A stretch of DNA of 64,000 nucleotides from positions 97,983-161,982 of IMG/VR virus record IMGVR_UViG_3300011115_000934, one strand, 5' to 3'. Each line of letters begins with the position of its first letter. Position 1 is the first letter of the stretch. The DNA is from a virus. Its lineage: Duplodnaviria; Heunggongvirae; Uroviricota; Caudoviricetes. The position numbers and the translations under genes were made by a program. A model generated the notes under the pieces. The model had not been told where the DNA came from, ran no database searches, and worked only from the letters and a program-made list of their open reading frames with translations. Shown here piece by piece: positions 5,021-46,130 of the stretch.

Positions 5021-5045
5021 AGTATTAGAAACAAATAAAAGAGTT

Positions 5046-5123: not shown

Positions 5124-5124
5124 T

Positions 5125-5742: not shown

Positions 5743-5752
5743 AGCAAGAAAG

Positions 5753-11788: not shown

Positions 11789-11795
11789 CCTAACA

Positions 11796-12076: not shown

Positions 12077-12169
12077 TAGGTGTGACAGTTGGTAAAGTTA
12101 GAAGTATATTAAGTTATTAAATTTCTGTATATTTTTCTAATTATGTGATATTTATAATAAACATATCAT

Positions 12170-12988: not shown

Positions 12989-12993
12989 GTAAC

Positions 12994-30259: not shown

Positions 30260-30261
30260 TT

Positions 30262-31548: not shown

Positions 31549-32006
31549 TGGAAGAAAAAATGTCAATCTGTCCACATTGTGGAGGAAATGCTTGCTATGA
31601 ACAGCAAGTAAGCGAAGAAGTAACAACGAGCTTTTGCTTTGGTTGTGGATATTCAACTTCAACTCTAATGGTTGAGGGAGGAGAATTAGTAACCAAAACA
31701 CTAGAAGCATCACCGGAACTATATAAAGATCTTATGTTTATAAGTGAAGATAAAAAAGTTTGGTTCCCTTCAACAGTTACTCTTCCAAATAAAGGAATGG
31801 TATTCTTAGATGGAAATTCTAAAGACAGTTGGAAGTGGGCTGCAGTAAGCTCTATAGAGATTCTAGAAGAAGAGAAAGCAAAGTTCCCAAAAGGTCAGAC
31901 AACAAAAATGGATATGAAAAATATCAAACATTTTGACAAAGAAGACTTCATGGAAGCATTAGATGCTATCAACTTTTTTGATGTAGAAGTTGCAGAATCA
32001 AAATAG
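31548..32006 (+). CDS. zinc-ribbon protein
   Basis: CPHCGG...CFGCG. Confidence 0.45.
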   Translation: MEEKMSICPHCGGNACYEQQVSEEVTTSFCFGCGYSTSTLMVEGGELVTKTLEASPELYKDLMFISEDKKVWFPSTVTLPNKGMVFLDGNSKDSWKWAAVSSIEILEEEKAKFPKGQTTKMDMKNIKHFDKEDFMEALDAINFFDVEVAESK

Positions 32007-32024
32007 ATTTCGTATATTAATAGT

Positions 32025-32639
32025 ATGAAAATAAGTTATGCAATAACAGTTTGTAATGAATTGGAGGAAGTGAAAAGACTAGTCAACTTCCTCCTTTCCA
32101 ACAAACGAGAAGAGGATGAGATAGTAATACTTCTTGACCATTCAAATGGAAAAGATGAGGTATACAGGTACCTACTAACACTTCCAACCGAAGTACAGTG
32201 TAATAGAGATACATTCCAAGGACACTTTGCTGATTGGAAAAATCAACTAAACTCATACTGCAGTGGAGATTATATCTTCCAGATAGATGCTGATGAGATT
32301 CCTCATATCAATCTAATACAAAACCTACCTGAAATGCTGAAGACTAATGATGTCGATATGCTTAGAATCCCTAGAGTAAATACTGTAGAGGGCTTAACTC
32401 AAGAGCATATACAGAAGTGGGGATGGAATGTAAATGAAAAAGGATGGGTTAACTGGGCCGATTGGCAAATGAGAATATACAAGAATGCTCCTCACATTAA
32501 GTGGGTTAATAAAGTACATGAAGTATTAGAAGGATTTAAGATACACGGAATGCTTCCACCGGAAGAGGAATGGGCTTTATATCATCCAAAGACAATCGAC
32601 AGACAAGAGAAGCAGAATAATTATTACAACACTTTATAA
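32025..32639 (+). CDS. GT-A fold glycosyltransferase (family 2-like)
   Basis: N-terminal ISYAITVCNE..., DADE (DxD) motif. Confidence 0.55.
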   Translation: MKISYAITVCNELEEVKRLVNFLLSNKREEDEIVILLDHSNGKDEVYRYLLTLPTEVQCNRDTFQGHFADWKNQLNSYCSGDYIFQIDADEIPHINLIQNLPEMLKTNDVDMLRIPRVNTVEGLTQEHIQKWGWNVNEKGWVNWADWQMRIYKNAPHIKWVNKVHEVLEGFKIHGMLPPEEEWALYHPKTIDRQEKQNNYYNTL

Positions 32640-32647
32640 AATCAGTT

Positions 32648-33958
32648 ATGGATAGTATTTTAAATTTAGTACAAGAGTACATTACAAAAAAAGACAGTGA
32701 GAAGAAATGGGTAGCAGGAGAGGACTTAGTCCAATATGCAGGGCCTTACTTCGATGGCCAAGAAGCTCAGGCAGTTGTTAGGACTATGCTTGAAGGTTGG
32801 TTAGTTTTAGGAAAAGAAGGAGCAATGTTTGAAAGACGTTTCCCTAAGAAGCTAGGACAAAAGACTGGAGTTATTGTTAATAGTGGCTCAAGTGCTAATC
32901 TACTAATGATGTTAGCCTTAACATCTAAGAGAGGATTAAACCTACCAAAAGGTACAAAAGTAATTACTCCAATAGCAGGATTCCCAGCTACACTTAGTCC
33001 AACAATTCAAGTAGGCTTTACGCCAATATTTGTTGATATTGAATTAGAATCTCTAAACTTAGATCTAGATCAAGTAGAGCAAGCATGCATTGATCATCCA
33101 GATGCAAAGATAATTACTTTTGCTCACGTATTAGGTAATCCACCTAACATGGATCGATTAATGGAAATCGTAAACAAATACAATTTAATATTACTAGAAG
33201 ACTGCTGTGATGCTTTAGGAACAACTTACGATGGAAAGATGTTAGGATCATTTGGTAAAATGTCTTCATGTTCATTCTATCCAGCACACCACATTACAAT
33301 GGGTGAGGGAGGATTTGTAGCTTGTGGAGATGCTCATACAGAAAAGATTTTAAGAAGCTTTAGAGACTGGGGTAGAGGATGTTTCTGTCAAGGTAAAGCA
33401 AATGCTTTAGAATGTGGTTCCTGTGGAATAAGATTTAGTAACTGGTTGCCAAGTTTACCTAATGAGATCTTTGATCACAAATATACTTACGAAGAGATTG
33501 GTTACAACTTAAAGCCAACTGAGTTACAAGCAGCAATGGGTAATGTTCAGTTAGGTAAGTTGGAAGAGATTGGAGTACTAAGAAGAAGAAATCATAAAGC
33601 AATTGTTGATATCTTTAAAAAGTATGAGGACAAATTCATACTACCAAAGGCTACAGCTAAGTCAGATCCAGATTGGTTTGCAGTTGCATTAACACTAAGA
33701 GATGGAGTAGGGTTTACGAGATCTGAATTCTGCCAATACCTAGAGGCAAATAAGATTCAAACAAGACCATACTTCGCAGGTAACATTATGCTACAGCCAG
33801 GATACTCTCACTTAATTGATTCGAAAGAAGTAATAGAGAAGTTCCCAGTATCGAGAAAAGTAACAACAGATACTTTCTTCTTAGGATGCTCTCCAATTAT
33901 TACATTAGAACAAATTGAATATATTGGAACGATTGTAGACAAATTCTTCAACAAATAG
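32648..33958 (+). CDS. PMP-dependent NDP-4-keto-6-deoxyhexose 3-dehydrase (E1/DdhC-like) with Fe-S Cys motif
   Basis: DegT/AHBA-synthase fold; His replaces the Schiff-base Lys (SFYPAHHITMGEGG); CFC-x8-C-x2-C cluster (GRGCFCQGKANALECGSCG) like the E1 C-x-C-x7-C motif. Confidence 0.7.
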   Translation: MDSILNLVQEYITKKDSEKKWVAGEDLVQYAGPYFDGQEAQAVVRTMLEGWLVLGKEGAMFERRFPKKLGQKTGVIVNSGSSANLLMMLALTSKRGLNLPKGTKVITPIAGFPATLSPTIQVGFTPIFVDIELESLNLDLDQVEQACIDHPDAKIITFAHVLGNPPNMDRLMEIVNKYNLILLEDCCDALGTTYDGKMLGSFGKMSSCSFYPAHHITMGEGGFVACGDAHTEKILRSFRDWGRGCFCQGKANALECGSCGIRFSNWLPSLPNEIFDHKYTYEEIGYNLKPTELQAAMGNVQLGKLEEIGVLRRRNHKAIVDIFKKYEDKFILPKATAKSDPDWFAVALTLRDGVGFTRSEFCQYLEANKIQTRPYFAGNIMLQPGYSHLIDSKEVIEKFPVSRKVTTDTFFLGCSPIITLEQIEYIGTIVDKFFNK

Positions 33959-33959
33959 T

Positions 33960-34940
33960 ATGAGGATAGCATTTATGACAGAGATGGGGTTTGAGGGAAA
34001 GGTTCCCTCTAACCACTCTAACATGCGAACTGAGTTTGCTTGGATGCATACATTGGATGCTGACCACAAACACATATACAACTACAAAGAAGTAAAAGGC
34101 TATGATCACATCTTTATTATTTTTCCTAAAGGAAGAGTGTACTTAGATGCCTGTGGAAGTAGGTTAGTGGATCAAGTAAATCCTGTATCGGGATTACTAG
34201 CTTCAAATATAGTAGAGCAACTAAAACAGTATAACAAGAAAGTTTACATAGTACAAGAAGGTCCTCACTGGTTATGGAATGACTATGAGATGGCTGATCA
34301 GATTGAATTCTACAACATGCTTACATCTTCAGATGGTATCTTTGCACACAATGAACATGACGTAAAATACTATAAAGGAATGTTTCCTAACGTACCTGTG
34401 CACGTTATGCCTACTCTAATGATTGATTCTATAGTACAAGACATTCAACCTGTTACAGAGGAGAAAGTTATTATAGGAGGAAACTTTGCTAGATGGTATG
34501 GAGGAATGGAAAGCTTCACAGTAGCACAAAGATTACAAGTTCCAATATGGGGACAGACATCTCACGCAATGAGAGATGGAGAGGATCAATTAGTAAATCA
34601 TCTACCAAGAGTTATGTGGACAGATTGGATGAAACAACTAAGTTCATTCAAGTATGCTGTACATCTTATGCCAACCATAGCAGCAGGAACGTTTAGTTTA
34701 AATTGTGCTTACTTTGGTATTCCTTGTATAGGAAATGAGAAAGTAGACACACAAAGATTATGTCATCCAGACCTAGCAGTTGACGTAGAGGATGTAGATA
34801 AAGCAGCAATGCTGGCTGAAAGGCTGAGTTATGATGAAGAGTTCTACCAAGAGTGCAGCAAAACAGCTCAGGAGAATTATAAAAAATACTACAGCCAAGA
34901 GTTGTTTAAACAGAAAATAAATAGTATAATAGTATTATGA
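33960..34940 (+). CDS. hypothetical protein (sugar-island)
   Basis: 326 aa, no motif recognised. Confidence 0.5.
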   Translation: MRIAFMTEMGFEGKVPSNHSNMRTEFAWMHTLDADHKHIYNYKEVKGYDHIFIIFPKGRVYLDACGSRLVDQVNPVSGLLASNIVEQLKQYNKKVYIVQEGPHWLWNDYEMADQIEFYNMLTSSDGIFAHNEHDVKYYKGMFPNVPVHVMPTLMIDSIVQDIQPVTEEKVIIGGNFARWYGGMESFTVAQRLQVPIWGQTSHAMRDGEDQLVNHLPRVMWTDWMKQLSSFKYAVHLMPTIAAGTFSLNCAYFGIPCIGNEKVDTQRLCHPDLAVDVEDVDKAAMLAERLSYDEEFYQECSKTAQENYKKYYSQELFKQKINSIIVL

Positions 34941-37318
34941 TAGTACAAATAACAATGGTTAGGAATGAAAAATTCCTAATAGAAAAACTACTTCCTATAT
35001 GGACAAAATATGCAGATGGCTTTGTATTTTTAGTTGATACCTCCAATGATGGAACAGAGGAGTTTCTTAGAGAAGCAGCTAAGCAGTATAACATTCTGGA
35101 TATAATAGTTCAAGAAGCAGACGATAATACTTTATGGGTAGCTTCGGAAGTAAGACAAAAAATGTTTGACACAGCTAAGCAGTATACAAATAAGATAGTA
35201 TGTCTAGATGCAGATGAATATTTTGACGGTTCCATGACTAAAGAGGAATTAGAAAACACATTAGACTCACACCAAGATACCCTATTTGATCTGAGATGGG
35301 TTCAGTACACATCTACTAATACTATCAGAGTTGATGGCCCTTGGAAAAATAACACAAAAGGTAGGATAGGAGTGTTCAATAAAGAATACACCTTCAGGTA
35401 TGACACAATGCATGCAACTCACTTACCAATCCCACAGAACCAATACATGTTTCCTGAAGAGAGTTTGTTTATAGCTCATCTACAGTGGTTAGATAGAAAC
35501 ATAGTCGGAATAAAGCAGTACTGCTATAAAGTGCAAGACTATGCAAGTCATGTTAAGTTTGGAGCTAATGTTGTAGAAAAGGAGGCGTATGATGCTTCTA
35601 TAAATGATTTTAATTGGGAAGAGGAGTACTACAACTATCCACTTAAAATACAAGAAGACATTTACGAACACATGATTAATGGAGACTACTATAGAACAGA
35701 TATCATAAAACAGTATACAAAAGAATTAGATATTCCAAATTTAGGAGATTGGGGATTGAATATTCACGATAGTGTTCCAATGTACTTCTGTACAGGTGCA
35801 GATGAAAAGCACTATCCACTTCTACTAAATATGATAGGAAGTATTCATAAATATAACTTTTACGATACTGTAGAGATTAGAATATACGATTTAGGATTAA
35901 ATGAGAGACAGAAACAAGAACTGAAGAACCTAAAGAAAGTTAACATATACCAAGTAGAACAAACTAACTCAGAAATATTAAAAGATGTCCAGACAAATCC
36001 AACTAGATTTGTTAAAGGACTGTTCTCATGGAAACCAGTTCTAATAAAGGACTCACTGGACCACTGTCCGTACGTTCTATACCTAGATGCTGGAACTGAG
36101 ATAAGAAAGCCTTTGAATAGTTTATTTAAACATATAATTCAAAATAAGTATCTGTTTTTTGATTGTGGACATTCAATAAGATGGATGAGTACAGATTATA
36201 ATATTCAAAGTTTGGATCTACAATCTAAAGAAAATTCTTGGATACTTAAAGACGATACCTTTGGAGTTGATGCTGGGTTTATGGGCTTGTCGAGAGAAGT
36301 CTATGATGAGTTTGTACTACCTATGTATGAGCTATCTAAAAATCTTAAAAACTTCGAAGACAATGGTTCTTGCCCTGATGGATGGGGTTCAGGGAGACAC
36401 GACCAAACACTGTTTAGTATATTAGCTAGAAAACTAAACTATAGTATTATAGCAAGTAAGGATGATTACAAGGACTGTAAGTTAGTAGTAGATGGAAAGG
36501 ATATAGAATTTCACATTACTCATGCTAGAGCAGATGTTAAAGACAGTACAGTTGTCTATAGATCTAGGTGGGATTTGTCCTATAGTAAGTACAAAGACAA
36601 TGTAGCATCTATAAAAAGGGATTATATACTTTCTGTAATAACTGCTATAGGAAGTCTTAGTAAGTATGAGAAATTCTTAGAACAATACTTTGAGAATATA
36701 TTACAGCAAATAGGTTTCTCAAGATTTGAATTTATAATAGTATACAGTGAGTGGAGTAGTATTTTTGATAAGTACACTAACTATGTAAATATTAAGTTCG
36801 TAAAAGAAGATCAGCAGAAAGGAGTATACAATGCTTGGAACATAGGAATACTTAATTCAACTACAGAATACATTACAAACTGGAACGTAGATGACATCAG
36901 ATTTGATATCAGCACCATTACAAAGTACCATGCACTTTCTAAAAATATAAATACAGATTTAGCATACAGCTACTATATAGGAATAGATGAGAGTGAAATA
37001 GGCATAGTTGACCTGAATGAGCAGCAATATATTGAGTACCCTGACAATTTTCACGAGCAGGCCCTATCGATGTGTATGGCAGGTCCTGATCCAATGTGGA
37101 GAAAATCTACTCACATATTTTATGGATACTTTGATTATACCAACTATAGTATAATAGGAGATTGGGAAATGTGGGTACGGATGGCTAAGAATGGATTAAC
37201 CTTCACACTACTTCCTTACGTATTAGGTGTCTATGTAGATCACAAGGACACAGTTAGTAAGAGTAGTGAGGAAAAAGTGGAACAACAAAAACAAAACTTA
37301 CGAAGACAGTATACGTAA
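34937..37318 (+). CDS. 793-aa multidomain glycosyltransferase (several GT-A-like modules)
   Basis: N-terminal GT2-like segment (VFLVDTSNDGT, DADE) and further nucleotide-diphospho-sugar-transferase-like segments. Confidence 0.55.
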   Translation: MIVQITMVRNEKFLIEKLLPIWTKYADGFVFLVDTSNDGTEEFLREAAKQYNILDIIVQEADDNTLWVASEVRQKMFDTAKQYTNKIVCLDADEYFDGSMTKEELENTLDSHQDTLFDLRWVQYTSTNTIRVDGPWKNNTKGRIGVFNKEYTFRYDTMHATHLPIPQNQYMFPEESLFIAHLQWLDRNIVGIKQYCYKVQDYASHVKFGANVVEKEAYDASINDFNWEEEYYNYPLKIQEDIYEHMINGDYYRTDIIKQYTKELDIPNLGDWGLNIHDSVPMYFCTGADEKHYPLLLNMIGSIHKYNFYDTVEIRIYDLGLNERQKQELKNLKKVNIYQVEQTNSEILKDVQTNPTRFVKGLFSWKPVLIKDSLDHCPYVLYLDAGTEIRKPLNSLFKHIIQNKYLFFDCGHSIRWMSTDYNIQSLDLQSKENSWILKDDTFGVDAGFMGLSREVYDEFVLPMYELSKNLKNFEDNGSCPDGWGSGRHDQTLFSILARKLNYSIIASKDDYKDCKLVVDGKDIEFHITHARADVKDSTVVYRSRWDLSYSKYKDNVASIKRDYILSVITAIGSLSKYEKFLEQYFENILQQIGFSRFEFIIVYSEWSSIFDKYTNYVNIKFVKEDQQKGVYNAWNIGILNSTTEYITNWNVDDIRFDISTITKYHALSKNINTDLAYSYYIGIDESEIGIVDLNEQQYIEYPDNFHEQALSMCMAGPDPMWRKSTHIFYGYFDYTNYSIIGDWEMWVRMAKNGLTFTLLPYVLGVYVDHKDTVSKSSEEKVEQQKQNLRRQYT

Positions 37319-37331
37319 CAAACTATAGCTT

Positions 37332-38126
37332 ATGCAAAAAAATAAACTAAAAGTAGCAGTTTGCCTAAGTGGAGAAGTGCGCCACTTTACTCACGACCTT
37401 GTTGTAGAAGGTTTTCAAAAATACATACAAACTTGGAACCCTGATATATTTATCTCAACTTGGGACCACTTAGGTAGGTCAATGAATCATGAGTATATTT
37501 CACCAAGAGAATTAAAAGAGCAGCAAGAAGACTTAGAACTCTACATAAAACAGATCTACCCAGGAATTAAATCAGTTGAGATAGAAAACTACAATAGGTG
37601 GATAGATCACATGCCAAAAGACGAATATAACCTAGCCTATTCAGACCTATACTTCTCAAGGACAATTAATAGTTATACACAATTGTACAAAATATACAAA
37701 GCTAATAATTTAAAGATTTGTTATGAAAAAGAACAAGGGATCAAATATGATATTGTACTTCGTGTTAGACCTGATAACTTATTTATAAGACCACTCGCTC
37801 TAGAGGAAGTGCGGCAAAAAACTATCTACAATGTAAATCTAGGAGGTGAGGCTTACTACCCTAATCGCATCTATGATATGTTCTTTTATGGTGGAAGTAG
37901 TGAAATGGATATATTATGCAACTCTTATTTAAAATATAAAGAACTGCTATACTCACCTTTTAACAATGGACTCTGCCCTAGAGATACCTGCAGACTACTC
38001 TACCTACAGGCAACCAACTCAGGACTAAGTGTTGAATCAACTAAAGATAGGTCCTGTGATATATACAGAGGACAGACCTTTGAAGAGTACTACAACCTAT
38101 TGCAGAGTTGGGGAGGATTAGATTAA
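37332..38126 (+). CDS. hypothetical protein (sugar-island)
   Basis: 264-aa ORF. Confidence 0.5.
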   Translation: MQKNKLKVAVCLSGEVRHFTHDLVVEGFQKYIQTWNPDIFISTWDHLGRSMNHEYISPRELKEQQEDLELYIKQIYPGIKSVEIENYNRWIDHMPKDEYNLAYSDLYFSRTINSYTQLYKIYKANNLKICYEKEQGIKYDIVLRVRPDNLFIRPLALEEVRQKTIYNVNLGGEAYYPNRIYDMFFYGGSSEMDILCNSYLKYKELLYSPFNNGLCPRDTCRLLYLQATNSGLSVESTKDRSCDIYRGQTFEEYYNLLQSWGGLD

Positions 38127-38142
38127 TATAAACACATAAAAA

Positions 38143-39948
38143 ATGATAGCAGTTATACCAATGCTAGGCATAGGAGAACGTTTTGCAAAAAATGGATACT
38201 CTGAGAGCAAGCCTTTTATACGAGTAAATGCAGAGATCCTTATTACAAAGGTGGTTAGTAATCTGTATGAGCATTTTTCTAAAATAGTAATTATATGCAG
38301 TACTGAAAATGCTGAGCAGGTTAGAGCTCTGTTTGATGAAAGAGTTACGATTGTACAAAGTGCAGCACCTACTAGAGGAGCAGCAGAGACAGTTCTGCTT
38401 TCGTATTTAGAGTTAGGAGAACAAGAGCAAATAGTATGTATGGACTGTGATACAGTACTATCACAAGAAGCTTTGTGTAAATTACCACAAGTAGATAGTA
38501 ATGGTATTTTAAGTTTTCTAGACAAAGACCGTACAGGATTGTATAGCTACCTATCATTAGACAAAAGCAGAAACATATTAGAGATACGAGAGAAGGTTGC
38601 TATAAGCGATGTAGCAAATGCAGGAGTATATGTTTTTAGTAATAAAGAAATAATGAAACTTGCTTGCGAAAATGTACTAGAGCAAACAAACGAATTATAC
38701 CTTAGCAAAGCAATACAAACACTAATAGACCAAAACTACAAAGTAGTATCAGTAGACATCTCAGGAGAGTTTACATGCTACGGAACACCTTACCAATTGC
38801 AGAGTCAAGCTAGAAATGAAAGTAAAGATAAACAATTAACTCTATGTTTTGATATTGATGGAACACTTGTGTACGATCTCTACACCAACCCTACAGCAGT
38901 AACTAAAAATGTATTGTTCTGCAATCAGGCATATAAAAGTGGGTGCAAAATAATACTACACACAGCTAGAGGAATGTTATCAACAAATTCAAATGTTCAA
39001 GAGATAGAGGCAAAACGTCCTCACATAGAGAAAGTTCTTAAGGACTTAGGTATATGTTACCATGAGTTGGTATTAATGAAACCCTACGCAGACATCTATA
39101 TTGACGACAAAGCTGTACCAGCTTATAAGAATTTAGAAAAGGCAACAGGACTATATCTGTCAGAGGAGCATACAGCTAGAGCTCACAACAAGATTATTGT
39201 AAATGGAGATACTATTGAAAAACAAGGAAGCATTGAGGGGGAAGACTACTACTACAGAACACTCCCAAAGGATCTACAGAAGTACTTTCCAACAGTAGTT
39301 AGTACCACACCAGAGAGTATAGTGCTGTCTAGGATTGTAAAGCCTACATACTCGTCTCTATTACTTTCACAAAGACTTTCCAAGACAGACCTAGATATGT
39401 TAGTCGAGTCACTAAACGTAATTCACAACTTCCCTTCAGACAATATTGAAATAGATCTTAACTGGGCCTATGGTTCAAAGATTAAAGAAAGGTTTACTAA
39501 GTTTAGCTCTTTGTATAAAAAGTTAGGAGTAGATACTACTCAGTATGAGCAGTTGTGTGATGTTTGTTTTGATAATAAGTATGGACGCATACATGGAGAT
39601 ACTGTATTCACCAACATCTTTGCAGGAGATGCTAAGTGCAGCTTCATAGATATGAGAGGAGAGTGGGACAATAGGTTGACAGTTGGAGGAGACATATACT
39701 ACGACTTTGCCAAAGTTCTACAAAGCTTAACAGGATACGACTATGCATTACACAATGAACCTATCCAGAATGAATACCTAAAGAGCTTGAGAGAGCATTT
39801 TGTAGGCAAGCTATTGCAGATACATCCAACACTTTCAATAGACCAGTTGCAAAGTAAAGTTAGATTACTTTACATTTCGTTAATACCTTTTCATAGAGAC
39901 GATTTACAGAGGTGTGGTAGATTTATTAAGTTGCTAGACAGTATTTAA
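38143..39948 (+). CDS. tri-domain enzyme: sugar-/alcohol-phosphate nucleotidyltransferase + HAD phosphatase + APH/choline-kinase-fold kinase
   Basis: N-terminal AVIPMLGIGERF...KPF (DdhA/RfbA-like NTase), middle LCFDIDGTLV (HAD motif I), C-terminal IHGDTVFTNIF (Brenner HGDxxxxN kinase motif). Confidence 0.6.
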   Translation: MIAVIPMLGIGERFAKNGYSESKPFIRVNAEILITKVVSNLYEHFSKIVIICSTENAEQVRALFDERVTIVQSAAPTRGAAETVLLSYLELGEQEQIVCMDCDTVLSQEALCKLPQVDSNGILSFLDKDRTGLYSYLSLDKSRNILEIREKVAISDVANAGVYVFSNKEIMKLACENVLEQTNELYLSKAIQTLIDQNYKVVSVDISGEFTCYGTPYQLQSQARNESKDKQLTLCFDIDGTLVYDLYTNPTAVTKNVLFCNQAYKSGCKIILHTARGMLSTNSNVQEIEAKRPHIEKVLKDLGICYHELVLMKPYADIYIDDKAVPAYKNLEKATGLYLSEEHTARAHNKIIVNGDTIEKQGSIEGEDYYYRTLPKDLQKYFPTVVSTTPESIVLSRIVKPTYSSLLLSQRLSKTDLDMLVESLNVIHNFPSDNIEIDLNWAYGSKIKERFTKFSSLYKKLGVDTTQYEQLCDVCFDNKYGRIHGDTVFTNIFAGDAKCSFIDMRGEWDNRLTVGGDIYYDFAKVLQSLTGYDYALHNEPIQNEYLKSLREHFVGKLLQIHPTLSIDQLQSKVRLLYISLIPFHRDDLQRCGRFIKLLDSI

Positions 39949-40011
39949 TTTTGGATATTGTAGTGGTAGTTAAAGTAGTATTAAGTGTAAAATTATAATT
40001 TAAAATAGAAA

Positions 40012-40968
40012 ATGACAAAAGTAGTTTACATAACAGGTTGTTTAGGATTTATAGGATCTTACGTAACAAGAGCATGCCTCGAGAAAGGATGGTATGTTAA
40101 AGGAGTTGATAAGAAGACCTATGCAGCCAATAAAGATTTATTAAAAGAGTTTAAGGAGTATGAAAACTTTTCATTTGTAGATTGTGACATAAATGATTTA
40201 AAGTTTCTATACGACTGTGACTATATAATTAATACAGCAGCCGAGACGCACGTAGGCAACTCTATAATGAACTCAGACGTATTTGTACATTCAAACGTAA
40301 ATGGAGTTCATAACTTACTAGAGTTAATAAAAAACCATAGAGGAGAGAATGCAACCAAGCCTACACTACTTCACTTTAGTACAGATGAAGTATATGGAGA
40401 TATTGAGGAAGGAGAGCATATAGAAACTGATATACTTAAACCATCTAACCCATACTCAGCTACTAAAGCAGCAGCAGATATGTTAGTAACAGCTTGGGCA
40501 AGAACTTACAAGCTTCCCTATATTATAATAAGACCAACAAACAATTATGGAATAGGACAGTATGTAGAAAAACTAATACCTAAAGCCTGCAAGTACCTAA
40601 GACTTGGTAAAAAGATTCCTTTACACAATAATGGTACTCCAATCAGAAACTGGCTCCATGCTCAAGATACGGCTGAGGCTGTCATCACAATCATCGAATC
40701 AGGAGTACAGAATGAAATCTATAATATTTGTGGAGGATTTGAGCAAAATAATTTGGATACTATCAAAAAAGTTCTTATATTATATAATGAAAACAAAGAG
40801 CATGTGTTAGAGGATTTTGTAGACTTTTCATGTGACAGACAAGGACAGGATGTTAGGTATGCTTTGAATGATGATAAACTAAGAGCATTAGGATGGAAGC
40901 CTACAATCGACTTTGACTCAGAACTAAAACATGTTGTAAAGTATTATAGAGAAAAATTTATATGGTAA
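40012..40968 (+). CDS. NDP-hexose 4,6-dehydratase/epimerase (extended SDR)
   Basis: GCLGFIGS Rossmann motif, YSATK (YxxxK). Confidence 0.7.
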   Translation: MTKVVYITGCLGFIGSYVTRACLEKGWYVKGVDKKTYAANKDLLKEFKEYENFSFVDCDINDLKFLYDCDYIINTAAETHVGNSIMNSDVFVHSNVNGVHNLLELIKNHRGENATKPTLLHFSTDEVYGDIEEGEHIETDILKPSNPYSATKAAADMLVTAWARTYKLPYIIIRPTNNYGIGQYVEKLIPKACKYLRLGKKIPLHNNGTPIRNWLHAQDTAEAVITIIESGVQNEIYNICGGFEQNNLDTIKKVLILYNENKEHVLEDFVDFSCDRQGQDVRYALNDDKLRALGWKPTIDFDSELKHVVKYYREKFIW

Positions 40969-42716
40969 AAGTAAGTGATGTAATCGTTCAATACCTTAAG
41001 GCTAATAACATAGAAATTGTATTTGGGATAATTGGTTCAGCCAACTCTCACATATTCAATTCAATATTAGAAGAAGGGAGTATCAAATTGGTATCGGTAC
41101 ATCACGAACAAGCTGCTGTAATGGCTATGGGAGCTTACTATCGTTCAACTGGAAAGATGGCTGTTGCATTAGTAACAGCAGGAGGAGGAGCCTCAAATGC
41201 TTCAACAGGAATTCTTTCCAACTGGGCTGACTCTATTCCTGGAATTATTATCTCAGGACAGGAACAGTCGTATTACCTAGATGAGTACAGAGATATGAGA
41301 ATGTTCGGAGTACAAGGCTATGATGCAGTAAAGGCATATGAAAACTGTACTAAGATGTCGCATGTAATTACAGAAGATACTCTACATACAATAATGCCAT
41401 TCGCATTTGCTTTAACACAAGAAGGAAGACCAGGTCCAGTATTCTTAGAAGTACCCTTCGACGTTCAGAGTAAGATGGTAGAAGATAGAGGAGTACAGAT
41501 TGGAACAACCACCTTTACAAATCCTCACATATCCTCTAGTACCGATTACATACTAGCAGCACTAGCACAAGCAAAGCGACCAGTAGTGTTAGGAGGTCAC
41601 GGTGTTAAGCTGGCCAAAGCAGAAGGAGCTTTCAAACAATTTGTAGAAGAGTACAATGTACCAACAGTATTAAGTTGGTCAGCAGTGGACTTGCTTGATG
41701 ATAACAATCTAAACTATTTTGGAAGACCAGGAGTTCAAGGACAGAGAGCAGCTAACTTTATAGTACAGAACTCTGATTTACTAATTGTATTAGGAAGCAG
41801 ACTATCACTACTACAAACAGGATACAAGAGAGAGGACTTTGCTCCAAATGCTAATATTATTCATGTTGACATAGATGATGCAGAGATTAGAAAGTTTAAA
41901 GGAAAGAATATTGTAGCAGATGCTGGAGATATCCTTAGTAGCTTGAACTCTAAAGTAAGAGTTGAACTTGATATAGAGGAATGGATCACATACTGTAATC
42001 AAATCAAACAAAAGTATCCTTTGGTAATGCCTGAGCATTTAGCAGATCCTACTAATTCATATACATTTATTGATAAATTCTCACAAAAAGTACCAGATAA
42101 CTATACAATTGTTACTGATATGGGAACAGCATTGTTGAGTGGATTCTATGGATGGAGAATTAAACCTAACCAAAAAATGTTTACTTCTCTAGGATTAGGA
42201 GAGATGGGATACGGATTAGCAGCAGCAGTCGGAGCAGGGTTTGGACAAAGACCAGTGATGTGTTTAAACTGTGATGGAGGTATGATGATGAACCTACAAG
42301 AGTTGCAAACAATCAAGACACACAACCTTCCAGTAAAGATTATTATATTCAACAATGACGGATACCTAATGATCAAACATACCCAGAATATGTTATTCAA
42401 AGGAGCTCGTACTTGTGTAGATCAACAATCAGGAGTAACATTACCTGACTATAGAAAAGTAGCACACGCATTTGATTTTGAATACTTCACAGAGGATAGG
42501 GTAGATGACTTCCTAGCATTTGAAGGCCAGGCTATCATGGAAGTGTTTATGAACCCAGATCAAGAATTTATTCCTAAAGTAAGAGGAATGAAATTAGAAG
42601 ACAATACAATTCAAGCAGGACTGCTAGAAGAAATGTCACCACTACTACCATTAGAACAAATAGAACAAGCTATGGTTGCAGGTATTAATCAAAGAAGTAA
42701 AACAGTTGTAAGATGA
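40962..42716 (+). CDS. thiamine-diphosphate-dependent carboligase (acetolactate-synthase large-subunit/YerE-like)
   Basis: Three-domain ALS layout, GGGASNASTGI and TPP-binding GLGEMGYGLAAAVGAG...NNDGY. Confidence 0.8.
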   Translation: MVKVSDVIVQYLKANNIEIVFGIIGSANSHIFNSILEEGSIKLVSVHHEQAAVMAMGAYYRSTGKMAVALVTAGGGASNASTGILSNWADSIPGIIISGQEQSYYLDEYRDMRMFGVQGYDAVKAYENCTKMSHVITEDTLHTIMPFAFALTQEGRPGPVFLEVPFDVQSKMVEDRGVQIGTTTFTNPHISSSTDYILAALAQAKRPVVLGGHGVKLAKAEGAFKQFVEEYNVPTVLSWSAVDLLDDNNLNYFGRPGVQGQRAANFIVQNSDLLIVLGSRLSLLQTGYKREDFAPNANIIHVDIDDAEIRKFKGKNIVADAGDILSSLNSKVRVELDIEEWITYCNQIKQKYPLVMPEHLADPTNSYTFIDKFSQKVPDNYTIVTDMGTALLSGFYGWRIKPNQKMFTSLGLGEMGYGLAAAVGAGFGQRPVMCLNCDGGMMMNLQELQTIKTHNLPVKIIIFNNDGYLMIKHTQNMLFKGARTCVDQQSGVTLPDYRKVAHAFDFEYFTEDRVDDFLAFEGQAIMEVFMNPDQEFIPKVRGMKLEDNTIQAGLLEEMSPLLPLEQIEQAMVAGINQRSKTVVR

Positions 42717-43570
42717 AAATAAAAGTAGCAATTATTGGTACAGGTAATATCGGAACAGATCTATTACTGAAAGCCCTAAAGACAGACTTCATGGATGTAG
42801 TAGCATTTGTAGGTCGTAGGTTAGATTCGGATGGAATGCTAACAGCTAAGAAACATAGCATATTAATATCTGATCAAGGTATTCAATACTTTATTGATAA
42901 TCCAAATTGTTGTGATGTGGTATACGATTGCACATCAGCAGCAGATGCTATTGAGCATGCTAAGTTATTTAAACAACAAGGAATAAAAGTAATTGACTTA
43001 ACTCCAGCCAAGGTAGGAGATATGTGTGTACCGGATGTTAACTCTGAGATTATCTTAACAGATGGTAATGTTAATATGATTACTTGTGGAGGACAAGCTT
43101 CCATGCCAATGTTACACTTATTATCAAAAGAGTGTACAGGATTAGAATATATTGAAGTAGTCTCTCAAATTGCATCTAAGAGTGCAGGAATGGCTACAAG
43201 GATAAATGTAGACAACTATATCCAAACAACACAGAAGGCTATTGCAAAGTTTACAGGTTGTTCAAATAATAAAGTAATCTTAAATCTTAATCCTGCTGAG
43301 CCTTGTGTTGATATGCAAACAACAATCTTCATCAAAGCAAAGAAAGTTAATTTTGAAAACTTAACAGAGAAGGTTTTAGATAAGATTGAAGAGTTAAGAA
43401 CTTACATCCCTTACTACGAAATGGTTCTTCCTCCAACTATGAACGACAGTGGAGTAGTTGTAATGAGTATCAAAGTAAGAGGTACAGGAGATTACCTTCC
43501 AGCATATGCAGGTAACCTAGATATTATTAACTGTGCAGCAATTAAAGTAACAGAAAGATTAGTAAAATGA
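42713..43570 (+). CDS. acetaldehyde dehydrogenase (acylating), DmpF/MhpF-like
   Basis: N-terminal MKIKVAIIGTGNIGTDLL and catalytic-Cys loop ITCGGQASMP as in DmpF; ATGA overlap with the upstream TPP-enzyme gene. Confidence 0.7.
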   Translation: MKIKVAIIGTGNIGTDLLLKALKTDFMDVVAFVGRRLDSDGMLTAKKHSILISDQGIQYFIDNPNCCDVVYDCTSAADAIEHAKLFKQQGIKVIDLTPAKVGDMCVPDVNSEIILTDGNVNMITCGGQASMPMLHLLSKECTGLEYIEVVSQIASKSAGMATRINVDNYIQTTQKAIAKFTGCSNNKVILNLNPAEPCVDMQTTIFIKAKKVNFENLTEKVLDKIEELRTYIPYYEMVLPPTMNDSGVVVMSIKVRGTGDYLPAYAGNLDIINCAAIKVTERLVK

Positions 43571-44565
43571 GAAAAGTAATCATAACAGATTCAAGTCTTA
43601 GAGATGGAAATCATAGCGTTAAGCATACTATCAGTTTAGATAGTATAGCAAGGTATTGTCAATTTGCTGATAAGGCAGGAGTACCAATTGTAGAGGTAGG
43701 TCATGGAAATGGATTAGCAGCTTCTTCTCTACTTGTAGGTAAGTCTGTTAACACAGATGAGGAAATGCTAATAACTGCTAAAAACAATTTGAAGAATTCC
43801 AAACTAGGAATTCACATGATACCAGGACTAGCAACACTGGAACATACTAGAAAGGCTATTGACCTAGGAGTAGATGTAGTAAGAGTAGCAACACATTGTA
43901 CTGAAGCAACTTTGTCTAAGTCTCACATCGAAGCATTAGCAAAAGCAGATGTGGAAGTGTTCGGAGTGCTAATGATGAGTGCCTTGATCACTCCTCAGGA
44001 ATTACTAGAGCAAACTAAAATAATGGAAGGGTACGGAGCTAGGGCTATTATTATAATGGACTCTACAGGAACATACCTACCATTTGATGTACAACAAAGA
44101 ATCTCTTTACTAAAAAGCAACCTAAGCATACCAGTAGGATTTCATGCTCACAACAACTTAGGATGTGCAGTAGCAAATTCCTTAATAGCAGTAGAGTTTG
44201 GAGCAGATTATATTGACGGATGTATTAGAGGTTTTGGAGCTGGAGCAGGTAACGCTCCACTAGAACTTCTTATACCAGTACTAGAACAAAGCGGCTTCCA
44301 AGTAGGAATAAACTTTCAAGAGACAATCAAAGAAGCAGATAATGCAATGGACTACTTGGTTCCTTCAGCACCTATCACAACACCAATTAACATATTAACA
44401 GGACTTAAAAAACTATTCTCAGGATTTGAAAAGCCAATTGTAAGTGCTTCTAAACTATACGGAATAGAGTACTCATCTCTTATCTTTGAATTAGGAAATA
44501 GAAAGTTAGTAGCCGGGCAAGAAGATCTTATATTGGAAATAGCACAGAAGCTAAAAAAGAAATAG
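43567..44565 (+). CDS. 4-hydroxy-2-oxovalerate aldolase-like (DmpG/MhpE, DRE-TIM metallolyase)
   Basis: ITDSSLRDGNHSVKH metal-site signature; ATGA overlap with the dmpF-like gene. Confidence 0.7.
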   Translation: MRKVIITDSSLRDGNHSVKHTISLDSIARYCQFADKAGVPIVEVGHGNGLAASSLLVGKSVNTDEEMLITAKNNLKNSKLGIHMIPGLATLEHTRKAIDLGVDVVRVATHCTEATLSKSHIEALAKADVEVFGVLMMSALITPQELLEQTKIMEGYGARAIIIMDSTGTYLPFDVQQRISLLKSNLSIPVGFHAHNNLGCAVANSLIAVEFGADYIDGCIRGFGAGAGNAPLELLIPVLEQSGFQVGINFQETIKEADNAMDYLVPSAPITTPINILTGLKKLFSGFEKPIVSASKLYGIEYSSLIFELGNRKLVAGQEDLILEIAQKLKKK

Positions 44566-45477
44566 ATGAACGTAATCATTACAGGAGGTAATGGATTTTT
44601 AGGATCTAACATTGCTAGAAGGCTTTTAAAACAAAATCATAAGGTTTATATATTTTCAAACAATATAAATAACATAGAGGATATACTACCTGAGGTTATA
44701 TTTGACTATAGTGACACTAAGTCTTTGCCTGCCTTTGAAAAAAAGATAGAGACATTCTCACCAGACATAGTAATCCATTGTGGATGGAGTGGAGGAAATA
44801 GCTATGCAGATACAAACAGCGTAGATCAATTCTACGAAAATGTAGATCCGAGCATATCCCTACTACAGCTTTTAGGTAAACTTAACAAGAAGCCTAAATT
44901 TGTAGGCTTTGGAAGCTTTGCAGAATATGGAAACATTAGTACGCCAGTAAGTGAAGAAGTGCAGGAAATACCTACAAACTTATATGGACTCTCTAAATAC
45001 ACTTTTAAAAAGTATAGTGAGATGTTATGTAGCCGTTACGAAATGGAATGGGTATGGATAAGACCTTGCTACGTATACGGACCAGGAGATGTAAGCACAA
45101 GACTACTTCCTAGTATAGTAGCAAAATTTTTAAGTAATGAAACAGTAGTACTTGATGAGTGTACCTCCATTGCAGATTATATTTACATAGATGATTTTGT
45201 TAATTCAATTTATTTCCTTATATTAACAGAACACACAGGGGTATACAACATATGCTCAGGAAAGCAGTACAAGATAAGAGATATAGTTGAGCAAGTTCAC
45301 AAACAAGTAGGAAGCAGTAGCACTATTAAGTTTGATAGTACTTTAGCAAGATCCTCAACATATTCGTACATATGTGGAAGTAGGAGTAAGTTAGACAATG
45401 CTATAGGAAATCTAGAACAAATATCTTTAACTGAAGGATTAGAAAAAGTAATAATTAGTAATAAATTAAGTAAATGA
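44566..45477 (+). CDS. NAD(P)-dependent epimerase/reductase (SDR)
   Basis: TGGNGFLGS, YGLSKY (YxxxK). Confidence 0.7.
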   Translation: MNVIITGGNGFLGSNIARRLLKQNHKVYIFSNNINNIEDILPEVIFDYSDTKSLPAFEKKIETFSPDIVIHCGWSGGNSYADTNSVDQFYENVDPSISLLQLLGKLNKKPKFVGFGSFAEYGNISTPVSEEVQEIPTNLYGLSKYTFKKYSEMLCSRYEMEWVWIRPCYVYGPGDVSTRLLPSIVAKFLSNETVVLDECTSIADYIYIDDFVNSIYFLILTEHTGVYNICSGKQYKIRDIVEQVHKQVGSSSTIKFDSTLARSSTYSYICGSRSKLDNAIGNLEQISLTEGLEKVIISNKLSK

Positions 45478-46112
45478 AAAACGAAGTTGTAGAAAAAGAA
45501 GGAGGCTGGATTTGGCCTAAGAGTGACGAGAATAGTTGGGAAGGTCAGAACGAGCACAGTAGCCTTGCTAAATATGTACTCCCTTATGTAAAAAATAATA
45601 GAGTAATGATTCAAGCAGGAGGTAACTGTGGATTTATATTAAGTACCTTTGTTGAACACTTTGATAATGTATACACATTTGAACCAGACCCTATAAACTT
45701 TTACTGCTTAAATCAAAATGTTACTTCACCTAACGTTATTAAAATGCAATGCTGCCTAGGGAAGGAAAACTCACCAGTAAAAGTACAACAATTAGACAGA
45801 CCAGGAAGACTAAGAGATACAGGTGGAGTGCACGTAGAAGGGTCAGGAGTAACTCCTACCATTATTATCGACAACTTGAATTTACAAGCATGTGACTTAA
45901 TCCAATTAGATGTGGAAGGCTACGAACTTAATGCATTACTTGGAGCAGTGGAGACTATTAAGAAGTACAAACCAGTACTGTGTATAGAATTTTGTGAAAA
46001 ATGGCTAAACAGATACGAAACTACATCAAGTAGCATTGAAGCTCTTTTAGCTGAATTAAACTACAAGCATGTGGAATCGTACGGAGTAGATAGGATTTTT
46101 ATACCACAATAG
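45474..46112 (+). CDS. FkbM-family methyltransferase
   Basis: IQAGGNCGF SAM-binding motif, family-typical length. Confidence 0.55.
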   Translation: MKNEVVEKEGGWIWPKSDENSWEGQNEHSSLAKYVLPYVKNNRVMIQAGGNCGFILSTFVEHFDNVYTFEPDPINFYCLNQNVTSPNVIKMQCCLGKENSPVKVQQLDRPGRLRDTGGVHVEGSGVTPTIIIDNLNLQACDLIQLDVEGYELNALLGAVETIKKYKPVLCIEFCEKWLNRYETTSSSIEALLAELNYKHVESYGVDRIFIPQ

Positions 46113-46130
46113 TATATAGACTAAACAAAG

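What the first reader, a model, noticed from the sequence alone, without database searches (positions are those of the whole stretch)
38143..39948. Single 601-aa polypeptide fusing nucleotidyltransferase, HAD phosphatase and APH/choline-kinase-fold kinase
The domain order NTase (GxGxR..K N-terminus), HAD (DxDGT) and kinase (HGDxxxxN) would allow phosphorylation, dephosphorylation and NDP-activation of a small alcohol or sugar by one protein. This resembles LicA/LicC or heptose HddA/GmhB/HddC logic, but the fused arrangement is not familiar. It may supply the NDP-hexose for the downstream dehydratases, or an NDP-activated non-sugar substituent such as a phosphocholine-like group.
Basis: inference. 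Interest (0 to 1): 0.6.

Follow-up and report, generated by a model that had tools for sequence, protein, structure and literature searches.

The report
Three-in-one viral sugar-activating enzyme
A Flavobacterium-type phage encodes one 601-residue protein that joins a sugar kinase, a phosphatase and a nucleotidyltransferase. Other phages use these three activities as separate or pairwise-fused proteins to make activated sugars; this all-in-one form is common in uncultured phages and giant viruses, is uncharacterised, and its sugar is not known.

Summary
Positions 38143-39948 (+) hold one uninterrupted 601-aa ORF with three intact domains in the stated order: sugar-1-P nucleotidyltransferase (1-226), small HAD phosphatase (232-338) and an APH/choline-kinase-fold kinase (345-601). 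All catalytic motifs are invariant across 25 homologs of 28-88% identity.

It is not a frameshift artefact. 96 of 109 homologs have the same architecture, as do 92 of 143 further 50%-identity cluster representatives. These include giant-virus MAGs and Indivirus ILV1. No record in the phage-isolate collection covers 80% of it.

The kind is known. In T-even phages, AfhE (NTase-kinase) plus AfhF (HAD) make UDP-arabinofuranose. A phage HAD-APH enzyme plus a cytidylyltransferase is needed to put heptose on DNA. The kinase and HAD domains here are clear homologs of the T-even ones.

Most likely route: sugar omega-phosphate -> 1,omega-bisphosphate -> sugar-1-P -> NDP-sugar.

The sugar is unresolved. 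The adjacent RmlB/RfbH/ErwE-like pathway suggests NDP-glucose. However, the closest collinear phage clusters run that pathway without this gene. Its most frequent neighbour is instead a DUF7796-like protein (37332-38126).

Verdict: a new variant of a known kind, moderately interesting.

The parts
38143..39948 (+). Whole 601-aa ORF: NTase-HAD-kinase trifunctional protein
38143..38820 (+). Residues 1-226: sugar-1-phosphate nucleotidylyltransferase domain (G9xG11xR13, K23, D101xD103, E150-K151)
   Evidence: Pfam PF00483 above its cutoff. Foldseek matches 5z0a, 4evw and RmlA. Residues invariant. GIGER read at 38167-38181.
38836..39156 (+). Residues 232-338: small cap-less HAD phosphatase domain (D237xD239xT241, T274/R276, K313, D321-D322), inserted between the NTase and the kinase
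   Evidence: TIGR01689 and Hydrolase_3 matches. PDB 9iqw and 1xpj. 39% identity to the HAD of a T-even phage arabinosylation cluster, 68.8 bits with a local HMM. DIDGT read at 38851-38865. It is the most conserved of the three domains.
39175..39948 (+). Residues 345-601: APH/choline-kinase-fold kinase domain (K360, E367, H484-G-D486-x4-N491, D503, YD520-521xAK, GYD531-533)
   Evidence: Profile alignment to APH(3'). AF2 model pLDDT 93. Foldseek matches APH, ChoK, LicA and Mak. Homologous to the AfhE-like C-terminal domain at 77.8 bits and to phiRSL1 ORF236 at 122 bits. Motifs read.
37332..38126 (+). 264-aa DUF7796-like protein of unknown function, the most frequent neighbour of the fusion and its probable functional partner
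   Evidence: Present within 8 kb in 27 of 90 three-domain loci, and within 1.5 kb in 21, in phage and giant-virus contigs. Weak Pfam DUF7796 match. No PDB match.
33960..37318 (+). 326-aa unknown protein and 793-aa multi-domain GT2 protein. Together with 37332-39948 they form the segment that L119/L120 replace with two other genes
40012..40968 (+). dTDP-glucose-4,6-dehydratase-like SDR directly downstream, a possible consumer of an NDP-glucose product
   Evidence: TIGR01181 at 309 bits, Pfam. Usually occurs without the fusion in related phages.

Best explanation
The protein is a self-contained, three-step NDP-sugar synthase of a large Flavobacterium-type phage.

Proposed steps:
1. The C-terminal APH-fold kinase uses ATP to phosphorylate the anomeric C1-OH of a sugar that already carries a distal phosphate, taken from host central metabolism.
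2. The central HAD domain removes the distal phosphate from the resulting 1,omega-bisphosphate.
3. The N-terminal nucleotidyltransferase condenses the sugar-1-phosphate with an NTP to give NDP-sugar plus PPi.

The product is the donor for glycosyltransferases in the same variable cassette of the phage glycosylation cluster. The DUF7796-like protein next to it is the likeliest partner.

Shown here: the three folds, intact and conserved active-site residues, specific homology of the kinase and HAD domains to the T-even cluster genes that the cited paper treats as AfhE/AfhF analogues, and the conservation of the fusion.

Inferred: the order of the steps, by analogy with the published AfhE/AfhF biochemistry and the heptose pathways. 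The identity of the sugar and of the nucleotide is not determined.
For: - Three intact domains with invariant or nearly invariant catalytic residues.
- The kinase HMM scores 77.8 bits on the C-terminal domain of the NTase-kinase protein of a T-even arabinosylation cluster, and 122 bits on phiRSL1 ORF236. The HAD HMM scores 68.8 bits on the adjacent T-even HAD, with 39% identity. That HAD closely matches the solved 9iqw (phmmer E 5.7e-48, about 70% identical by my count of the alignment).
- Published function of the separate parts. AfhE is an Ara5P kinase plus UDP-Ara pyrophosphorylase, and AfhF is a Mg-dependent phosphatase acting on Araf-1,5-P2 (PMC13326640). A HAD-APH enzyme, a CTP-transferase and a GT were all required for heptosyl-5hmC.
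- Rosetta-stone pattern. All pairings occur in different viruses: NTase-kinase, HAD-kinase, NTase-HAD, HAD-NTase and the triple fusion.
- Context is always glycosylation. Neighbours are GTs and sugar-modifying genes here and in L001, and TET/JBP DNA-hypermodification genes in L004, L005 and 6 other loci.
- Cassette behaviour and the DUF7796-like partner.
Against: - There is no biochemical data on any three-domain member.
- The NTase domain belongs to a different subfamily from the T-even AfhE-like N-terminal domain (no HMM hit), so the analogy rests on two of the three domains.
- The order of the kinase and phosphatase steps cannot be read from sequence.
- No sugar-phosphate isomerase lies nearby to indicate the substrate.
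- The acceptor of the glycosylation cluster (virion protein, DNA or host surface) is unknown.
- The DUF7796-like partner is present in only about 30% of loci.
Confidence: 0.62

Rival explanations
1. Entry enzyme of the adjacent deoxysugar pathway. It converts host glucose-6-P (via glucose-1,6-bisP and glucose-1-P) into NDP-glucose for the RmlB-like 4,6-dehydratase, the RfbH-type 3-dehydrase and the ErwE-like ThDP enzyme. It would take the place of RfbF/RmlA and bypass phosphoglucomutase.
For: - It lies 64 nt upstream of a dTDP-glucose-4,6-dehydratase-like gene.
- The cluster otherwise matches the erwiniose/yersiniose scheme but has no other NTase.
- The fusion, RmlB-like and RfbH-like genes co-occur in L001, L039, L040, L046, L058, L061, L066, L069, L072, L073 and L098, even where the fusion is only about 30% identical.
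Against: - RmlB, RfbH and ErwE genes are very common in this phage lineage without the fusion. 58 of 66 loci with at least 6 kb upstream have no domain of this family. The nearest relatives L119/L120 have two unrelated genes in its place and no canonical NTase.
- Most three-domain homologs, including the giant-virus ones, have no 4,6-dehydratase nearby.
Confidence: 0.28
2. The same three activities in the recycling order seen for MupP/AmgK/MurU. The HAD first removes the phosphate from a sugar-6-P, the APH-fold kinase then phosphorylates the free sugar at C1, and the NTase activates it.
For: From my own knowledge, APH-fold anomeric kinases that act on free sugars exist (NahK, AmgK, maltose kinase). 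Mak is among the fold matches. The overall stoichiometry is the same as for the bisphosphate route.
Against: The characterised homologous pair is reported to go through the 1,5-bisphosphate, with the HAD acting after the kinase (PMC13326640). Small cap-less HADs such as GmhB typically take bisphosphates (own knowledge).
Confidence: 0.2
3. In this phage the donor is used to hypermodify DNA, not a glycan. This is what the distant three-domain homologs next to TET/JBP genes appear to do.
For: Three-domain homologs sit beside Tet_JBP genes in 8 loci. The separate-gene versions serve DNA arabinosylation and heptosylation.
Against: The window has no Tet/JBP, ThyA-like or hydroxymethylase gene. The cluster has many GT1/GT2 genes, an O-antigen-like variable cassette and deoxysugar tailoring genes. 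The DNA-modification genes present are of the 7-deazaguanine type.
Confidence: 0.1
4. A LicA/LicC-like activation of a non-sugar alcohol (choline, ethanolamine or similar) to a CDP-alcohol.
For: Choline kinases and LicA are among the best fold matches for the kinase domain. One JGI homolog is labelled choline kinase.
Against: - APH enzymes match equally well.
- The kinase is far closer to the AfhE-type sugar-phosphate kinase, at 77.8 bits against 18 bits.
- The NTase best matches sugar-1-P NTases.
- A conserved phosphatase has no role in that route.
- All contexts are glycosyltransferase-rich.
Confidence: 0.04
5. An artefact: three separate genes joined by a sequencing or assembly error.
For: None found. 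RB69 shows the opposite error, with AfhE split in two by a sequencing error.
Against: The same uninterrupted architecture appears in about 190 independent protein clusters from many samples, and in 80 of 80 of the best IMG/VR loci. The full-length model is confident.
Confidence: 0.01

Closest known systems
AfhE / AfhF of arabinosyl-5-hydroxycytosine phages (HY126; RB69 gp52:53 + gp51; DLP3 gp82 + gp81). He et al. 2026 Nat Chem Biol, as summarised in PMC13326640
   Same: The same three activities: an APH-like kinase acting on a sugar phosphate, a small HAD phosphatase acting on the bisphosphate, and an NDP-sugar pyrophosphorylase. The kinase and HAD domains are demonstrable homologs. It is also virus-encoded and supplies the virus's own glycosyltransferases.
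   Different: There the NTase and kinase form one protein and the HAD is a separate gene downstream. Here all three are one chain with the HAD between them. The NTase belongs to another subfamily. The window has no arabinose-5-P isomerase, ThyA-like hydroxylase or DNA arabinosyltransferase context. The sugar is probably different.
Phage 'contig 53' HAD-APH bifunctional enzyme + cytidylyltransferase + GT-B (bioRxiv 10.1101/2023.12.21.572611)
   Same: The same trio of domains. All were required in E. coli to install heptose on 5hmC. HAD-kinase two-domain proteins are close relatives of the kinase domain here (24 of 143 representatives).
   Different: That system is a two-protein arrangement in a TET/methyltransferase DNA-modification cluster.
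Bacterial nucleotide-heptose pathways (HddA/GmhB/HddC; HldE/GmhB). Own knowledge
   Same: The same logic: sugar-7-P -> 1,7-bisP -> 1-P -> NDP-sugar, with a HAD phosphatase in the middle step.
   Different: Those kinases are of the GHMP or ribokinase type, not APH fold. They need a GmhA isomerase, and no SIS gene is present here. The enzymes are separate, or fused only as kinase plus adenylyltransferase.
MupP / AmgK / MurU cell-wall recycling route (own knowledge; MurU cited in PMC13326640 ref 54)
   Same: A HAD phosphatase, an APH-fold anomeric sugar kinase and a minimal sugar-1-P uridylyltransferase acting on one sugar.
   Different: In that route the phosphatase acts first and the kinase acts on the free sugar. 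The genes are separate bacterial genes. Homology to them was not tested here.
Indivirus ILV1 A0A1V0SE67 'Nucleotidyl transferase domain-containing protein' (635 aa)
   Same: A full-length structural and sequence match: 30% identity over 646 aligned columns, Foldseek E 6.6e-56. It has the same three-domain architecture.
   Different: It comes from a giant virus of eukaryotes, is uncharacterised, and is annotated only for its N-terminal domain.

Membership tests
Sugar-1-phosphate nucleotidylyltransferase (Pfam PF00483) | Score above the Pfam gathering threshold | tested here: met
   32.1 bits against a cutoff of 21.2, residues 9-208.
Sugar-1-phosphate nucleotidylyltransferase (Pfam PF00483) | N-terminal GxGxR(x)nK signature, acidic metal-binding pair and EK sugar/phosphate motif | tested here: met
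   G9, R13, K23, D101, D103, E150 and K151 are invariant, and G11 is at least 90% conserved. GIGER read.
Sugar-1-phosphate nucleotidylyltransferase (Pfam PF00483) | Rossmann-like NTase fold | tested here: met
   Foldseek probability 1.0 to 5z0a, 2ggo, 4evw (TM 0.77 normalised to the target) and RmlA.
Sugar-1-phosphate nucleotidylyltransferase (Pfam PF00483) | Which NTP and which sugar-1-P are used | not testable with these tools
   All equivalog models fall far below their cutoffs.
HAD-superfamily phosphatase | Four HAD motifs: DxDxT, T/S, K and DD | tested here: met
   D237, D239 and T241; T274 with R276; K313; D321 and D322. All are conserved in at least 90% of 25 homologs. DIDGT read.
TIGR01689 EcbF/BcbF capsule biosynthesis phosphatase | Score above the NCBIfam curated cutoff | tested here: not met
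   24.8 bits against a cutoff of 162. The domain is homologous but is not a member at that level.
APH / choline-kinase fold (Pfam PF01636) | Brenner motif HxDxxxxN, a downstream metal-binding Asp, and a beta3 Lys with an alphaC Glu | tested here: met
   H484, D486, N491, D503, K360 and E367 are conserved. The motif aligns to APH(3') HGDACLPN...FID. K360 lies in a strand and E367 in the following helix of the model.
APH / choline-kinase fold (Pfam PF01636) | Match to the Pfam model | tested here: not met
   No PF01636 hit at E <= 1 for this protein. Only homologs P0092 and P0093 carry it.
APH / choline-kinase fold (Pfam PF01636) | Bilobal kinase fold | tested here: met
   Domain model pLDDT 93. 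Foldseek probability 1.0 and TM 0.55-0.63 to 4few, 3mes, 4r7b and 4o7o.
AfhE/AfhF UDP-arabinofuranose system | Kinase and HAD homologous to AfhE C-terminal domain and AfhF | tested here: met
   77.8 bits for the kinase, and 68.8 bits with 39% identity for the HAD, against Enterobacter phage IME523 gp045/gp044. The gp044 HAD closely matches PDB 9iqw (phmmer E 5.7e-48, about 70% identical by my count of the alignment).
AfhE/AfhF UDP-arabinofuranose system | Bifunctional NTase-kinase protein with a separate HAD gene | tested here: not met
   Here there is one chain, with the HAD inserted between the NTase and the kinase.
AfhE/AfhF UDP-arabinofuranose system | Arabinose-5-P isomerase (SIS) in the cluster | tested here: not met
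   IME523 has a SIS gene. None was found in the window or in 198 loci by Pfam on window ORFs, tblastn and jackhmmer.
AfhE/AfhF UDP-arabinofuranose system | ThyA-like 5-hydroxy-dCMP synthase and DNA arabinosyltransferases adjacent | tested here: not met
   No ThyA-like match in the window.
AfhE/AfhF UDP-arabinofuranose system | NTase of the LicC/MurU-like subfamily | tested here: inconclusive
   The NTase HMM of this family does not hit the IME523 N-terminal domain, but it does hit phiRSL1 ORF235 at 112 bits. Full-length structural matches to proteins of 563 and 576 aa, unnamed in the table, exist.
Heptose HddA/GmhB/HddC or HldE/GmhB pathway | GHMP or ribokinase-type kinase, plus a GmhA isomerase | tested here: not met
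   The kinase has the APH fold, and no SIS gene is present.
LicA/LicC phosphocholine activation | Choline kinase plus CTP:phosphocholine cytidylyltransferase, with no phosphatase step | tested here: inconclusive
   LicA is a fold match. Against this, a conserved HAD is present, the NTase best matches sugar-1-P NTases, and the kinase is much closer to the AfhE type.
MupP/AmgK/MurU | Sequence homology to AmgK, MurU and MupP | not tested
   No reference sequences were at hand. Only the analogy of logic is claimed.

The most novel reading that the evidence does not exclude
The three-domain protein and its DUF7796-like neighbour form a previously undescribed, portable viral glycosylation module shared by phages and giant viruses. 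The module would make an NDP-sugar that is neither UDP-arabinofuranose nor the NDP-heptose already linked to this enzyme trio. It would do so directly from a central sugar phosphate, for example glucose-6-P through an APH-fold glucose-6-P 1-kinase, which would be a new activity. Intermediates would pass between three active sites on one chain, independent of host mutases.
Probability: 0.3. Interest if true: 0.65.

Novelty: new variant of a known kind. Interest (0 to 1): 0.5.

Why it matters
Viruses that decorate their DNA or particles with unusual sugars need donors the host may not make. The kinase/phosphatase/NTase trio has only recently been reported as the phage solution for two sugars. 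This finding shows that a single-chain version is the dominant form among the closest relatives of the kinase. It is spread across uncultured phages and giant viruses and is unannotated beyond 'nucleotidyl transferase'. A one-gene route from a sugar phosphate to an NDP-sugar would also be a convenient tool for glyco-engineering. Identifying its sugar would help decode the variable glycan cassettes of marine and freshwater phages.

Tried and rejected
- Megablast of 36000-44000 against isolate phages found nothing.
- tblastn of the protein against isolate phages found 360 records, but none covers at least 80% of it.
- I expected a canonical RfbF/RmlA in the collinear relatives L119/L120, which would have shown gene displacement. 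The two replacement genes (281 and 342 aa) have no NTase or other informative PDB match.
- I looked for a sugar-phosphate isomerase to reveal the substrate and found none.
- I tried to identify the DUF7796-like partner by Pfam, PHROGs, NCBIfam and a profile search of the PDB. Nothing usable came back.
- The genome-contig scan gave only MAG/SAG contigs and no cultured organism.
- A second homolog search with the kinase profile returned only unnamed metagenomic fragments.
- The AFDB fold library was unavailable.
- The primary AfhE/AfhF paper is not held, so its biochemistry is cited second-hand from PMC13326640.
- I could not inspect model coordinates, so inter-domain channelling and a phosphate-binding pocket in the kinase were not assessed.
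Full report
OBSERVATION

The ORF at 38143-39948 (+) is real. It starts with ATG, has no internal stop and encodes 601 aa. The overlapping minus-strand ORFs are short, and none was examined further. All ORFs of 120 aa or more in the window that matched a protein family lie on the + strand, and GC is about 35%.

The window is part of a large phage. It carries a family A DNA polymerase, GroEL, an RNA ligase, a holin, a chitinase-like lysin and 7-deazaguanine genes. The polymerase is 88% identical to that of Flavobacterium phage vB_FspM_immuto, genus Immutovirus.

THE THREE DOMAINS

- Nucleotidyltransferase, residues 1-226. Pfam NTP_transferase scores above its gathering threshold. The family profile hits V. 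cholerae 4evw at E 8e-29, plus ST0452, GlmU and RmlA. The full-length AF2 model (pLDDT 90, pTM 0.79) gives Foldseek probability 1.0 to the same structures.
- HAD phosphatase, residues 232-338. It matches the small TIGR01689 'capsule biosynthesis phosphatase' type, but below that model's cutoff. It also matches PDB 9iqw and 1xpj.
- Kinase, residues 345-601. It has no Pfam hit of its own. A profile of 20 homologs aligns HGDxxxxN and the following ID to APH(3'). The domain model (pLDDT 93) matches APH(3')-Ia, APH(2''), choline kinases, LicA and maltose kinase at probability 1.0.

In a 25-sequence alignment spanning 28-88% identity, every catalytic residue of all three domains is invariant or nearly so. 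The HAD domain is the best conserved of the three. The motifs were also read directly from the DNA.

IS THE FUSION REAL AND HOW COMMON IS IT?

- Of 109 homologs found with the whole protein, 96 have NTase-HAD-kinase in one chain.
- A kinase-domain profile searched against 1.84 billion cluster representatives finds 4,384 proteins at E <= 1e-3 and 563 at E <= 1e-30.
- Of the 143 new representatives among the best 150, 92 are three-domain proteins, 24 are HAD-kinase, 18 are kinase alone and 8 are NTase-kinase.
- In IMG/VR, 186 contigs encode a relative. The best 80 are nearly all close to full length, and 29 of them are giant-virus MAG contigs.
- The best viral structure match is a 635-aa Indivirus ILV1 protein aligned end to end.
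- No record in the isolate-phage collection covers 80% of the protein.
- A scan of species-representative genomes found only MAG/SAG contigs.

The architecture is therefore widespread. It appears to be essentially viral, and no source gives it a name beyond generic labels.

WHAT IS KNOWN ABOUT THE PARTS

T-even-like phages that arabinosylate 5-hydroxycytosine encode AfhE, which has an NTase N-terminal domain and an APH-like kinase C-terminal domain. AfhE phosphorylates arabinose-5-P to the 1,5-bisphosphate and later forms UDP-arabinofuranose. They also encode AfhF, a Mg-dependent HAD that removes the 5-phosphate, and an arabinose-5-P isomerase (PMC13326640, section 27; the primary paper, He et al. 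2026, is not held).

In Enterobacter phage IME523 these genes lie in the order SIS isomerase, 562-aa NTase-kinase, 121-aa HAD, ThyA-like gene. Local HMMs of my three domains gave these results:
- Kinase: 77.8 bits on the IME523 C-terminal domain and 122 bits on phiRSL1 ORF236.
- HAD: 68.8 bits on the IME523 HAD, which is 39% identical.
- NTase: no hit on the IME523 N-terminal domain, but 112 bits on the separate phiRSL1 ORF235.

The IME523 HAD closely matches the solved 9iqw (phmmer E 5.7e-48, about 70% identical by my count of the printed alignment).

Independently, a phage 'contig 53' encodes a HAD-APH bifunctional enzyme, a cytidylyltransferase and a GT-B. All three were needed in E. coli to place one or two heptoses on 5hmC (bioRxiv 10.1101/2023.12.21.572611).

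So the same trio has been tied experimentally to two different sugars. Every pairwise fusion exists somewhere, which is strong Rosetta-stone evidence that the three activities serve one pathway.

MECHANISM

By homology and analogy, the most likely route has three steps:
1. The kinase puts a phosphate on C1 of a sugar omega-phosphate.
2. The HAD removes the omega-phosphate.
3. The NTase makes the NDP-sugar.

The three folds and intact active sites are shown. The order of steps is inferred. The alternative order, with the phosphatase first and the kinase acting on the free sugar as in MupP/AmgK/MurU, has the same stoichiometry and cannot be excluded.

WHICH SUGAR, AND FOR WHAT?

The gene lies inside a 19-kb glycosylation cluster (28817-47402). 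In order, the cluster encodes:
- two GT1 proteins, a 152-aa protein and a GT2;
- an RfbH-type 3-dehydrase, which scores above the NCBIfam equivalog cutoff;
- a 326-aa unknown protein, a 793-aa GT2-containing protein and a 264-aa unknown protein;
- the fusion;
- an RmlB-like 4,6-dehydratase;
- an acetolactate-synthase-like ThDP enzyme;
- an acylating acetaldehyde dehydrogenase and a 4-hydroxy-2-oxovalerate aldolase;
- an SDR, an FkbM methyltransferase and a GT2.

The downstream part reproduces the published erwiniose scheme: ErwE, ErwF, ErwI and ErwJ acting on an NDP-4-keto-3,6-dideoxyglucose (PMC9306805). That pathway needs NDP-glucose, and the cluster has no other NTase.

Comparison argues against a dedicated link, however:
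- The isolate immuto phages share the 5' glycosyltransferases (89-92% identity) but carry a different sugar cassette without the fusion.
- I collected 80 viral loci through the RmlB-like protein (72-92% identity). Of the 66 with at least 6 kb upstream, 58 have no domain of this family, and only 3 have the fusion.
- The closest relatives, L119 and L120, are collinear with the window gene for gene (GT1a 94%, RfbH 99%, RmlB 92%, ErwE 89%). The exception is that two unrelated genes of 281 and 342 aa replace the segment 326-aa / 793-aa / 264-aa / fusion. Neither is a recognisable NTase.

The deoxysugar pathway therefore normally runs on host NDP-glucose. The fusion belongs to a swappable segment.

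An unbiased clustering of neighbours within 4 kb of 91 three-domain genes shows the following:
- The 264-aa DUF7796-like family is the most frequent partner, in 23 loci. By HMM it is found in 27 of 90 loci within 8 kb, and in 21 within 1.5 kb, often abutting the fusion. These loci include giant-virus contigs.
- SDRs follow in 20 loci, and DegT/RfbH-type enzymes in 15.
- A family overlapping the Tet/JBP matches occurs in 8 loci.

No SIS isomerase, ThyA-like or Tet/JBP gene is present in the window.

I conclude that the enzyme is a portable NDP-sugar supply module. Its sugar may differ between lineages. In this phage it most likely serves the glycosyltransferases of its own cassette. NDP-glucose for the dehydratase branch remains a substantial minority possibility.

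COMPARISON AND NOVELTY

The protein works like AfhE plus AfhF, and like the heptose nucleotide pathways. It is not a member of the AfhE/AfhF system as defined. The architecture differs, the NTase belongs to another subfamily, and the isomerase, hydroxylase and DNA glycosyltransferase context is absent. It is also not a LicA/LicC system.

It is best described as a new single-chain variant of a known viral kinase/phosphatase/NTase route. I found no paper describing the triple fusion.

Interest is moderate. The logic is known. The breadth of the family across phages and giant viruses, the unknown sugar and the unknown DUF7796-like partner are open and directly testable.

Noticed in passing
window 32648-33958 and 40012-46112: The phage encodes what looks like a complete erwiniose/yersiniose-type branched 3,6-dideoxyhexose pathway. 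It has an RfbH-type E1 dehydrase, an RmlB-like dehydratase, an ALS-like ThDP carboligase, an acetaldehyde dehydrogenase plus a 4-hydroxy-2-oxovalerate aldolase (ErwJ/ErwI-like), an SDR reductase and an FkbM methyltransferase. No E3 reductase is recognisable.
   Followed up: partly
window 37332-38126: A 264-aa DUF7796-like protein has no recognisable fold match by sequence. Its invariant residues are G14, R17, D38, S42, W44, D45, Y139, D140, R146, D148 and D182. It is the most frequent neighbour of the three-domain enzyme in both phage and giant-virus contigs. It may be the transferase that uses the product, or an enzyme that makes the substrate.
   Followed up: partly
window 33960-39948 compared with L119 8137-9973: The middle of the glycosylation cluster behaves like an O-antigen-style variable cassette. 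In near-identical collinear phages, four genes (including the fusion) are replaced by two unrelated genes of 281 and 342 aa. The isolate immuto phages carry yet another cassette, with WecE-like transaminases, a PglB-like gene and a mannosyltransferase.
   Followed up: partly
L129 8149-8451; L137 10936-11232; L140 9170-9463; L142 5455-5751; L145 and L158 10939-11241: In several related phage loci a small stand-alone HAD of the same family sits directly after the RmlB-like gene, with no kinase or NTase of this family nearby. Its role there is unexplained.
   Followed up: no
L001 13556-14744: A related phage has the same cluster, but the ALS-like ThDP enzyme and the aldolase/dehydrogenase pair are replaced by a split pyruvate-dehydrogenase-E1-like pair (E1_dh + Transket_pyr). 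This suggests a different branch, probably acetyl, on the sugar. A WcbI-domain gene precedes the fusion there.
   Followed up: no
window 10972-13788 and 16842-17483: The window holds a 7-deazaguanine (preQ0-type) gene set: PTPS/QueD-like, a QueC-like protein, a QueE-like radical SAM enzyme and GTP cyclohydrolase I. This points to deazaguanine DNA modification in this phage. The ORF at 17464-18264 (phrog_20335, function unknown) could be the transglycosylase.
   Followed up: no
window 2076-6160: There is a possible RNA-repair set: a metallophosphoesterase, an AAA_33 kinase, an Rnl-type RNA ligase and a cREC_REC 'cyclic-phosphate processing receiver' domain protein.
   Followed up: no
L004 6071-9205; L005 7829-8728; L042-L044, L070, L074, L075: Distant three-domain homologs (about 30% identity) lie next to Tet_JBP dioxygenases. 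In L004 an ADDT-domain and a P-loop nucleotide kinase gene are also present. In those phages the same enzyme presumably feeds glycosylation of 5-hydroxymethylpyrimidines in DNA.
   Followed up: partly
L006 6001-6366 and PHROG phrog_1238: The small HAD phosphatase of T-even arabinosylation clusters is annotated 'phosphoheptose isomerase' in RefSeq and PHROGs. By sequence it is a HAD phosphatase that closely matches PDB 9iqw (phmmer E 5.7e-48), so this looks like a propagated misannotation.
   Followed up: partly
P0098 (homolog): One three-domain homolog has lost the HAD motifs: its HAD region is 12% identical and has no DxD. The NTase and kinase are kept, so this is a natural HAD-dead variant.
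   Followed up: no
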